64,000 nucleotides of DNA from Eledone cirrhosa (Eukaryota). The notes beneath the pieces are model-generated. The model ran no database searches, was not told the DNA's origin, and worked only from the letters and a program-made list of their open reading frames with translations. Location: positions 23,994,001 through 24,058,000 of the forward strand of contig OZ024755.1 in the NCBI GenBank assembly GCA_964016885.1, given 5' to 3'. A program made the translations under genes and the position numbers. This document shows, one piece after another, positions 11,504 through 63,012 of this stretch (position 1 is the first letter of the stretch; each line of letters starts with the position of its first letter).

Positions 11504-11692
11504 GGCTGGTTCTAATGGGGGATAAAACAATGGCATTAACTACGCTATCAGTTTTAAAATCCATAGTTGAAGGCTTTCAAAATGTTTATTTATAAACATA
11601 CCATATGTCACCAGATATATAACTTCATGTATTTCATATACAAAGCTATGTTAGAGTTAATACCCTTATTTTATCACCCGGCAAAGCCAGCC
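11504..11692. mobile_element. Small MITE-like element with ~38-bp imperfect TIRs
   Basis: GGCTGGTTCTAATGGGGGATAAAACAATGGCATTAACT vs reverse complement of the right end GGCTGGCTTTGCCGGGTGATAAAATAAGGGTATTAACT. Confidence 0.55.
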
Positions 11693-11970
11693 ATTCTATA
11701 TGCAAATTTGGCTGATCAGTCAATGTAAATAGGCTTCTAAACATTATATTTTAGCTTATATTAAGTTACATCAGTAAGTGGTCAGGAGTACTAGTTTGAT
11801 AATGACCAAAAGTCAGAAATGATGATGTCATCATCACTAGTTGCCCATACTTAGCTTCTGTTGCAACACATTAGATGGCGCTATGCTATCAGTTTTCAAA
11901 TTCATCGCTGAAGGCTTTCAAAATGTTTATTTATAAACATACCGTATGTCACCATATATACAACTTCACG

Positions 11971-12018
<48 letters not shown>

Positions 12019-12104
12019 AAGGCAGACAGAAATAACAAAGCAAACATCATAGTACAATGAAGAAATATATTATTAGTTTTATGTTTGATATAGTAGGAAA
12101 AGAG

Positions 12105-12140
12105 TCTTAACGTTTCGGACACTAGTCCTTCATCAGAAAA
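12105..12140 (-). ncRNA. Predicted minimal type I hammerhead ribozyme (family H-B)
   Basis: Minus strand TTTT-CTGATGA-A-GGAC-TAGT-GTCC-GAAACGTT^AAGA; palindromic AACGTT in place of stem III; ~90 nt upstream of a (TA)n tract. Confidence 0.75.
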
Positions 12141-12672
12141 TAGAATGAGAAATTAAAGAAGAAAAAAAAAGATAGAGGAGAGTGGGCAGTGGTAGAAAAG
12201 GGAAAAAAATCTTAGAAAAAAACAGGTCTATTCAAGTTACCATCTCTCTATATATAACTCAGGGAACCAAAGTTAAATACATATATACGTATATGTGTCT
12301 GAAAGTTTACATTTATTGTTTGTTTATATCATGTAACTAACAGTAAATGTAAACAGTCAGACACATACATATATTTATATTTACTGTTTGTTTATATCAG
12401 GTAACTTAATAGCTTCACTAAAAAAGATTAATATGGATCAAGTTGAAAAAGTAAGTACTGGGCTTCATATAATCAACTAAATCCCTTCAAAGTTTTACTC
12501 CAGCATGGCCGCAGTCTAATGACTGAAACAAGGAATAGAGTAAAAGAATAAATAAAATGATTTCAACGCCTTAGTGAGGTGTTTATTATATCCTTAAGAC
12601 ATGCTAAATCATATAGCTCATTTAAGAAGAGGATACATCATTTTGCTTGGTTATGCATTATGATAATAATAG

Positions 12673-51324: not shown

Positions 51325-51482
51325 ATAGCTGGGTAAACTCATTTCTAAAGCTGAGTGAACTGGAGCAACATGAAATAAAGTGTTTTGCTCAAGAATACAA
51401 CACGGTCTCACAGTCTGAGAATAAAACTCACAACTTCAGGATTGTAAGCTTAACGCTCTAACCACTAAGCCATGTGCCTTCA
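51325..51482 (-). mobile_element. SINE-B head
   Basis: CTGGAGCAACATGAAATAAAGTGTTTTGCTCAAG..CTAACCACTAAGCCATGTGCCTTC. Confidence 0.85.
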
Positions 51483-62669: not shown

Positions 62670-63012
62670 GGAGGCACATGGCTTAGTGGTTAGAGCATTG
62701 GCCTTGCAATCAAAAGGTTGTGAGTTCAATTCTCAGACTGGCGATATGTTGTTTCCTTGAGCAAGACACTTTATTTCACATTGCTCCAGTTTACTCAGCT
62801 GTAGAAATGAGATGATAGGGAGTGGGGTCCCTATCATTCCACTGCAAAGTGGTCGTGGAGGTGCCACGGCAAAAAAGCACCCAGCACTCACTGTAAATGA
62901 GGGTGGTGTTAGGAAGGGCATCCAGCTGTAGAAATCAAGCCAAAATCAGTTCCCGTCCCATCCTTGCAAGCAGGGAAAAAGCAGATGTAAAATGAAATGA
63001 TGATGATGATGA
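62670..63012 (+). mobile_element. Full-length SINE-B (tRNA head, CORE-like middle, family-C tail with (GAT)n)
   Basis: TGGCTTAGTGG A-box, GAGTTCAATTC B-box, CCTTGAGCAAGACACTT, GGAAGGGCATCC; flanked by a 100-bp direct repeat. Confidence 0.9.

What the first reader, a model, noticed from the sequence alone, without database searches (positions are those of the whole stretch)
12014..12140. Textbook minimal Penelope-type hammerhead on the minus strand
UUUU-CUGAUGA-A-GGAC-UAGU-GUCC-GAAACGUU^AAGA. Stem III is replaced by the palindrome AACGUU, which cannot fold in cis but could pair between two copies, as described for minimal PLE hammerheads. It is followed by ~90 nt and then (TA)n, like an element 3' end inserted in a TA tract.
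Basis: partly seen in the sequence, partly recalled or inferred. Interest (0 to 1): 0.7.

Follow-up and report, generated by a model that had tools for sequence, protein, structure and literature searches.

The report
Hammerhead tail of a Penelope retrotransposon
This is the short, broken-off end of a jumping gene present in thousands of copies in this animal genome; it carries a known minimal self-cutting RNA motif that likely matters only in active, full-length elements, so this lone copy is most likely an ordinary relic.

Summary
The motif is real and the predicted cut (12109/12108) is right; the pairing palindrome is ACGU, not AACGUU. It lies in a 234-bp, 5'-truncated, solitary copy (12014-12247, minus strand) of a dispersed family: the 33-nt ribozyme pattern has 2,748 exact matches genome-wide, control 0. 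Longer copies continue upstream into an RT + Cys-finger + GIY-YIG ORF, so this is the pseudo-LTR of a Neptune-type Penelope-like element (PLE). Between an old (window-type) and a young subfamily the ribozyme changed at 1 of 36 sites (pair-preserving) against 37 of 184 elsewhere, but inserted copies decay in it at the flanking rate. The cut leaves no mark on insertion ends: 3' ends lie 95 nt downstream and 5' ends do not pile up at it. One addition: in young elements the (TA)n after the pseudo-LTR is an element-encoded spacer before the 5' UTR, a likely priming site that matches the (TA)n target. Cleavage and expression are untested. Minimal PLE hammerheads are known (Cervera and de la Pena 2014). 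The scan has noted other hammerhead/Penelope families in this genome; look-ups by this sequence found none. Verdict: new member of a known kind, low interest.

The parts
12014..12247 (-). 5'-truncated pseudo-LTR (3' end) of a Neptune-type Penelope-like retrotransposon, old subfamily A; 22 differences from the subfamily majority over 236 positions
   Evidence: 84-89% identity to the 39 other scored copies; sharp shared 3' end, variable 5' ends; differences listed; same-subfamily copies L087, L094, L056 lie 400-445 bp behind GIY-YIG coding sequence
12105..12140 (-). minimal type I hammerhead motif: stem I 4 bp (one U.G), core C3-A9 plus extra A, stem II 4 bp with tetraloop, G12-A15.1, no loop III
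   Evidence: sequence; motif scan; conserved across subfamilies
12117..12128 (-). stem II and loop II, GGAC-UAGU-GUCC (family loop UAGC)
   Evidence: pair probability 1.0 in a 45-nt fold, 0.48 in the whole copy; alignment
12110..12113 (-). ACGU palindrome (A15.1, C15.2, G16.2, U16.1) that would form a 4-bp stem III between two copies
   Evidence: sequence; invariant in 11 of 11 rows of a cross-family alignment whose search pattern demanded it, so not independent support
12108..12109 (-). predicted cleavage site, after GUU (U17)
   Evidence: hammerhead numbering; register supported by the young subfamily, whose UCUU pairs perfectly with AAGA. Not tested for cleavage
12014..12104 (-). conserved 3' tail of the pseudo-LTR, ending at the microsatellite
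   Evidence: 53 of 69 A-type and 96 of 101 B-type ends are followed directly by an alternating purine-pyrimidine run
11974..12014 (.). (TA)20 tract at the 3' junction: target site and likely site where reverse transcription started
   Evidence: family comparison
12249..12256 (.). short TA run at the 5' junction, likely the other half of the interrupted target
   Evidence: sequence; family homology stops at 12247

Best explanation
This is the 3' pseudo-LTR of a Neptune-type Penelope-like retrotransposon, cut short at its 5' side and sitting alone in a (TA)n tract, and its minimal hammerhead is predicted to cut only with a second copy or protein help, so this copy is likely an inactive relic. 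Shown: family membership, the RT + Cys-finger + GIY-YIG ORF of longer copies, the insertion pattern, conservation of the motif between subfamilies, and neutral decay within them. Inferred: the GIY-YIG domain nicked a (TA)n tract; reverse transcription started inside the template RNA at the (UA)n spacer that follows the pseudo-LTR, 95 nt downstream of the ribozyme cut, and stopped after 234 nt; the template was therefore uncut at this site (or cut and re-ligated). In active elements two motifs, at the two pseudo-LTRs about 3.5 kb apart or on two RNAs, would swap strands and pair ACGU with ACGU to build stem III and cut after GUU, likely slowly and likely helped by the element's own protein, as reported for the anole element PAc.
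For: Family: 40 scored of 2,637 candidates, all 84-89% apart from self; 2,748 exact 33-mers, control 0; subfamily 22-mers 509 (A) and 3,953 (B), controls 0. ORF: an RT-thumb fragment from upstream of A-type copy L030 found 7,872 candidates; in 15 of those first 30 loci a same-strand ribozyme lay downstream within the 1.5 kb held. L067 reads pseudo-LTR, 5' UTR, ORF, 3' UTR, pseudo-LTR, with ribozymes 3,455 bp apart. Pfam RVT_1 E 6e-4 and GIY-YIG E 0.013/0.005, all below curated cut-offs; 66 longer homologues, best E 9e-109, 61 strong ones nearly all carrying PF26215 and most RVT_1; YIDD, CX4CxxC, CxxC-YIG and two His align; DKG in L034. Selection between subfamilies: 1 of 36 ribozyme sites differ (stem I C-G versus U.G) against 37 of 184 outside (p 0.008) or 17 of 88 in the tail alone (p 0.022). 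Neutral decay: rare variants 56/1848 in the ribozyme versus 141/5310 in the tail (A, p 0.41), 23/1008 versus 74/2864 (B, p 0.64). Solitary: no second copy and no ORF remnant in 84 kb. Ends: 5' ends within 3 positions of the cut, 92 pattern hits (17 of 30 fetched were true truncations), against 111 hits for a 4-position control 12 nt downstream. Spacer: 24 of 28 loci with a 5' UTR start have the pseudo-LTR tail directly upstream (19 of 23 after merging six duplicates), modal spacer 14 nt starting TACA; 28 of 84 solo B ends keep that TACA.
Against: No cleavage or expression was measured. ViennaRNA does not favour the active fold: swapped dimer -7.3 kcal/mol against -16.4 for two free monomers (window), -11.3 against -17.8 (B); stem I probability 0.01; folding z-score -0.71. 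This model ignores the core's non-canonical contacts, but it gives no support. The between-subfamily test rests on one pair of majority sequences. Shared variants are depleted in the ribozyme in B (3/1008 versus 35/2864, p 0.008) but not in A (49/1848 versus 131/5310, p 0.67). No A-type copy with a 5' UTR junction was found (0 of 69 ends, searched with the B motif), so the spacer is shown for B only; the window copy lacks TACA. The truncation test used subfamily B, and its control loci were not fetched and the control's total was not measured. No tree with named Neptune references was built.
Confidence: 0.86

Rival explanations
1. Same element, but the motif is kept for something other than cutting: a binding site for the element's protein, or part of the promoter in the pseudo-LTR.
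For: The cut leaves no footprint on either end of insertions; the active fold is not favoured in nearest-neighbour energies; in PAc, ribozyme mutants insert normally and no RNA reads end at the cut (PMC11167929).
Against: The conserved block coincides with the ribozyme (about 6 nt before C3 to 5 nt after the cut) and its one change keeps a stem I pair; another family in this genome keeps the same core with two stem II pairs swapped; PAc's motif does cut when protein is added.
Confidence: 0.2
2. A non-autonomous mini-element or retrozyme: a fixed short unit that is copied as a circle by PLE enzymes.
For: Most copies are short; two loci hold same-strand ribozymes 181 and 244 bp apart (L018, L004); earlier notes describe such families elsewhere in this genome (unchecked).
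Against: 5' ends vary freely and run on into the ORF; the two close pairs join copies of different subfamily or age; no multi-unit short array among the 235 loci held, though loci are mostly 3 kb and partly overlap.
Confidence: 0.05
3. This particular copy has been recruited by the host and cuts a host transcript.
For: Its 12 core bases are intact, with 1 change in the 36-nt motif against 21 elsewhere in the copy.
Against: 7 of 21 unbiased A copies and 19 of 31 B copies also have an intact core; the window copy was the query, found because its core is intact; no partner copy within 84 kb; none of 40 window ORFs of 90 aa or more has a Pfam match, though short exons were not tested.
Confidence: 0.04
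4. A chance match to a short motif.
For: 0.01 such motifs per 64 kb arise in simulated sequence; no Rfam hit.
Against: 2,748 exact copies, at a fixed position in a PLE end.
Confidence: 0.01

Closest known systems
Minimal type I hammerheads (min-HHR) of metazoan Penelope-like elements, Cervera and de la Pena 2014, PMC4209133 (parts 1-2 of 4 read: results, discussion; supplements not seen)
   Same: Conserved core, unpaired base between A9 and G10.1, G10.1-C11.1 pair, short helix I (4 bp), palindromic 15.2-16.2 with no loop III, position in the pseudo-LTR, thousands of solitary copies from truncated elements.
   Different: Helix II is 4 bp (7-8 bp in the Schistosoma families described); cleavage triplet GUU; this host group and family are not named in the parts read.
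Neptune clade of EN+ PLEs, as defined in Craig et al. 2021, PMC8557442 (12 of 32 passages read) and PMC3846280 (passages)
   Same: C-terminal GIY-YIG, CX2-5CxxC finger in the RT-EN linker, CCHH residues, DKG motif, pseudo-LTRs, inverted 5'-truncated copies (L034), microsatellite insertion bias, canonical hammerhead.
   Different: Nematis shares the linker finger and was not excluded by a tree. The passages read treat (TA)n as target only; here a short TACA(TA)n is also part of the element between pseudo-LTR and 5' UTR.
PAc (Poseidon of Anolis carolinensis), Frangieh et al. 2024, PMC11167929 (main text read, parts 1-2 of 4)
   Same: Insertion ends lie downstream of the ribozyme cut, as expected from internal initiation on uncut RNA; AT-rich targets.
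   Different: PAc initiates at an AC-rich stem-loop inside the ORF with no homology to the target, and its ORF overlaps the ribozyme. Here the ribozyme is about 335 nt before the ORF start and the end site is a (UA)n tract that matches the target.
Metazoan non-LTR retrozymes (preprint 10.64898/2026.07.22.740005, part 1 of 5 read; PMC7229834, search listing only)
   Same: Type I hammerhead, PLE ancestry.
   Different: Retrozymes are tandem, non-coding, fixed-length units; this copy is a solitary truncation of a coding element.

Membership tests
Minimal type I hammerhead (PLE min-HHR) | Core CUGANGA ... GAAA ... UH | tested here: met
Minimal type I hammerhead (PLE min-HHR) | Unpaired base after A9 and G10.1-C11.1 pair opening helix II | tested here: met
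Minimal type I hammerhead (PLE min-HHR) | Palindromic positions 15.2-16.2, no stable helix III in the monomer | tested here: met
   ACGU at 12113-12110
Minimal type I hammerhead (PLE min-HHR) | Short helix I closing the motif | tested here: inconclusive
   4 possible pairs, one pair-preserving change between subfamilies; probability 0.01-0.08 in the fold model; only 54.5% of cells paired across 11 rows of several families
Minimal type I hammerhead (PLE min-HHR) | Self-cleavage as a dimer, none as a monomer | not testable with these tools
   needs an assay; energies do not favour the dimer
Rfam hammerhead families | Score at the family threshold | tested here: not met
   no hammerhead family among hits to E 10; not filed under Rfam
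EN+ Penelope-like element | Single ORF with RT and C-terminal GIY-YIG endonuclease | tested here: met
   in longer family members, all broken by frameshifts or deletions among those read; A-type L146, L147, L148; absent from the window copy
EN+ Penelope-like element | Direct pseudo-LTRs and inverted 5'-truncated copies | tested here: met
   L067 direct, L034 and L167 inverted
EN+ Penelope-like element | Hammerhead in the pseudo-LTR | tested here: met
EN+ Penelope-like element | Spliceosomal intron near the pseudo-LTR (some families) | tested here: inconclusive
   an acceptor-like pyrimidine run ending CAG about 175 nt before C3 in A and B; no donor found, no RNA
EN+ Penelope-like element | 30-40 bp optional tail extension | not tested
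   not measured separately from the TA spacer
Neptune clade | CX2-5CxxC finger between RT and EN | tested here: met
   CX4CxxC in L067, L082 and 7 of 8 aligned homologues; shared with Nematis
Neptune clade | Microsatellite insertion bias | tested here: met
   149 of 170 A and B ends abut an alternating run; 19 of 19 listed checks not done for 5' ends, but 12 of 17 truncations at one site have a TA run upstream
Neptune clade | RT groups with named Neptune elements in a tree | not tested
   no named reference sequences were returned
Non-LTR retrozyme | Tandem fixed-length non-coding units with a ribozyme in each | tested here: not met
   solitary; variable 5' ends; no short arrays among the loci held

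The most novel reading that the evidence does not exclude
Neptune-type PLEs aim at microsatellites by carrying the target in their own RNA: a built-in TACA(TA)n spacer between pseudo-LTR and 5' UTR pairs with the nicked (TA)n end and primes reverse transcription internally, unlike the non-homologous start shown for Poseidon PAc. The ribozyme 95 nt upstream is under purifying selection yet defines neither end of an insertion, so it would act at another step (trimming or circularising the message, or gating translation).
Probability: 0.35. Interest if true: 0.45.

Novelty: new member of a known kind. Interest (0 to 1): 0.2.

Why it matters
The copy itself matters little: it is one of roughly ten to twenty-five thousand (rough estimate from exact-match counts and sample match rates). 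The family is a useful natural record for an open question, what PLE hammerheads do: it shows selection on the motif along the active lineage together with no trace of the cut in insertion ends, in a Neptune-type element for which the papers read here give no biochemistry. The encoded TA spacer gives a simple, testable account of microsatellite targeting.

Tried and rejected
Rfam: no hammerhead match. One search was meant to probe upstream but used the wrong side of a minus-strand locus; it still gave A-type loci, and asked the intended question. The idea that the family lacks an endonuclease (L030 joins RT thumb to the pseudo-LTR) was rejected: most RT copies continue into a GIY-YIG domain. 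Compensatory GAAC/GUUC stem II variants were not counted as covariation, since two transitions in a large family give them by chance; the cross-family pair count used rows picked by a pattern that forced changes, so it is weak. The lower overall divergence of the ribozyme against all flanks (p 0.0015 and 0.046 in unbiased sets) was not taken as selection on copies: it largely disappears against the 3' tail and comes from the T-rich upstream part. Copies under 190 bp and duplicates were dropped before those counts (63 A and 35 B kept). A 5'-end pile-up at the cut was looked for and not found. Six 450-bp pseudo-LTR/5' UTR units on C3 looked retrozyme-like but share junctions and are spaced about 100-300 kb apart, so they were treated as one duplicated locus. 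Lunse et al. 2017 is not held; only its title and a review's summary were seen. Paper searches for Penelope + octopus + hammerhead, Penelope-like + cephalopod + ribozyme and Penelope/Neptune/microsatellite/pLTR showed no description of this family or of an encoded TA spacer; Repbase, subscription journals and the papers' supplements were not seen and may hold both.

Full report
Observation. The cut falls between 12109 and 12108. A14 and U17 are not free to pair, so the self-complementary part is ACGU. A motif scan found 3 loose cores in the window and only this one with a palindromic stem III; simulated windows gave 0.01 per 64 kb. Rfam does not see it.

It is a repeat. The 247 bp around the motif gave 2,637 candidates; the 39 scored copies other than itself are 84-89% identical. 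All 30 fetched copies end at the same place, 95 nt after the cut, and run into a microsatellite; their 5' ends vary. The window copy spans 12014-12247, with (TA)20 on one side and a short TA run on the other. The 33-nt ribozyme pattern occurs 2,748 times exactly, control 0. Two subfamilies share the motif: A (window type; 509 exact 22-mers; mean 10% from its majority) and B (3,953; 4.5%). Scaling by sample match rates gives a rough total of ten to twenty-five thousand.

It is a Penelope-like element. Two of the 30 nearest copies (L026, L030) have RT remnants directly upstream, and a third (L005) 450 bp upstream. Searching with the L030 fragment gave 7,872 candidates; in 15 of 30 fetched loci (one being L030 itself) a same-strand ribozyme lay downstream, mostly 1.1-1.3 kb away, behind a Cys finger and a GIY-YIG domain. 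L067 shows the layout pseudo-LTR, 5' UTR, ORF, 3' UTR, pseudo-LTR; its upstream pseudo-LTR is separated from the 5' UTR by about 500 bp of other repeats. L034 shows the inverted 5' arrangement and the DKG motif. Pfam matches are weak, below cut-off, but 66 longer homologues were found, best E 9e-109, with RT, thumb and in part GIY-YIG annotations, and the catalytic and Cys/His motifs align. A-type copies L146, L147 and L148 carry the same ORF at 71-78% DNA identity to B. A C-terminal endonuclease with a CX2-5CxxC linker marks Neptune or Nematis, and microsatellite bias is attributed to Neptune (PMC8557442, passages); no tree was built.

Selection. The A and B majorities differ at 1 of 36 ribozyme positions, a stem I C-G versus U.G, against 37 of 184 elsewhere (p 0.008) and 17 of 88 in the tail alone (p 0.022). 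Within subfamilies rare variants hit the ribozyme as often as the tail (p 0.41 and 0.64); shared variants are depleted in B (p 0.008) but not in A (p 0.67). Only 7 of 21 unbiased A copies and 19 of 31 B copies keep all 12 core bases. So the motif was kept in the elements that bred, and decays once inserted. The window copy has 22 differences from its majority, one in the motif. It has no partner and no ORF remnant within 84 kb, and none of 40 window ORFs matched Pfam.

Mechanism. Published minimal PLE hammerheads do not cut as monomers and cut weakly as dimers (PMC4209133; review PMC6765202, passages); the anole PAc motif needs its protein, and its mutants still insert (PMC11167929). Nearest-neighbour energies do not favour the active monomer or the swapped dimer here. 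The cut leaves no mark on insertions: 3' ends lie 95 nt beyond it, and B copies do not begin there more often than 12 nt further on (92 hits over 3 positions, 17 of 30 fetched being true truncations, against 111 over 4 positions, of which about 16 of the 100 listed were internal deletions by eye). The template was thus uncut, or re-ligated, and copying began internally. Where: 24 of 28 loci with a 5' UTR start have the pseudo-LTR tail just upstream (19 of 23 independent), joined by a spacer of modal length 14 nt that starts TACA, and 28 of 84 solo B ends retain TACA. The TA tract is therefore partly element-encoded, and a nicked (TA)n target could pair with it. This step is inferred, shown for B only, and TACA is also a common microsatellite variant. 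The same tract could instead be a TATA-like promoter, as proposed for a rotifer element (PMC3846280, passage); a transcript from it would hold one ribozyme only.

Comparison and verdict. It meets the sequence features of the min-HHR class and of EN+ PLEs, fails the retrozyme test, and cannot be tested for cleavage here. Five paper searches showed no description of this family; Repbase, subscription papers and supplements were not seen. Look-ups in earlier scan notes by this sequence and nearby place found nothing, while 349 notes in this genome fit the words hammerhead and Penelope. New member of a known kind; interest 0.2.

Noticed in passing
L183-L189, L194, L195 (e.g. G000:C3:187019299-187019326, minus): A different dispersed hammerhead family with the same core and ACGU palindrome but stem II GAGC-UUAU-GCUC, mostly GUC/GUA triplets, only about 1 bp of stem I next to the core, and (TA)n about 70-100 nt after the cut; L183 has GIY-YIG coding sequence 1.3 kb upstream.
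   Followed up: partly
L190-L193, L197 (e.g. G000:C21:13060549-13060581, minus): Minimal hammerheads with a longer stem II (about 6-7 bp) and a U or UG insertion after A9, in A-rich flanks; likely another PLE clade.
   Followed up: no
L158, L162, L174 (junction at element position 301-302) and L173, L175 group (position 250): Independent loci in which 5' UTR plus ORF start is joined directly to a 5'-truncated pseudo-LTR; three joins fall at a short TATAT in the ORF. Could mark a second priming or template-jump site.
   Followed up: partly
L067:3017-3045 (minus) and the same place in A-type L022, L029, L146: Splice-acceptor-like pyrimidine run ending in CAG about 175 nt before the ribozyme, kept in both subfamilies; the 3' UTR upstream contains a (CA)n tract. 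Possible PLE intron; no donor identified.
   Followed up: no
L201 (G000:C1:35062500-35072400): Three B-type pseudo-LTRs in direct order 2,207 and 2,329 bp apart without the ORF between them, two with a 43-bp inverted piece at the 5' side.
   Followed up: partly
window 12281-12378: Imperfect inverted repeat, 44-nt arms, 82% complementary, just 5' of the element; not part of the family.
   Followed up: no
window 11540-11649 and 11881-11990: 110-bp direct repeat, 86% identical, 341 bp apart; the second copy runs into the (TA)20 tract.
   Followed up: no
window 62677-62740 (+) and 51409-51476 (-): Weak tRNA-like Rfam matches (30.3 and 22.2 bits), possibly SINE heads.
   Followed up: no
window 37640 (+) and 29255 (-): Two other loose hammerhead-like cores without a usable stem III; expected by chance at 0.44 per window.
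   Followed up: no
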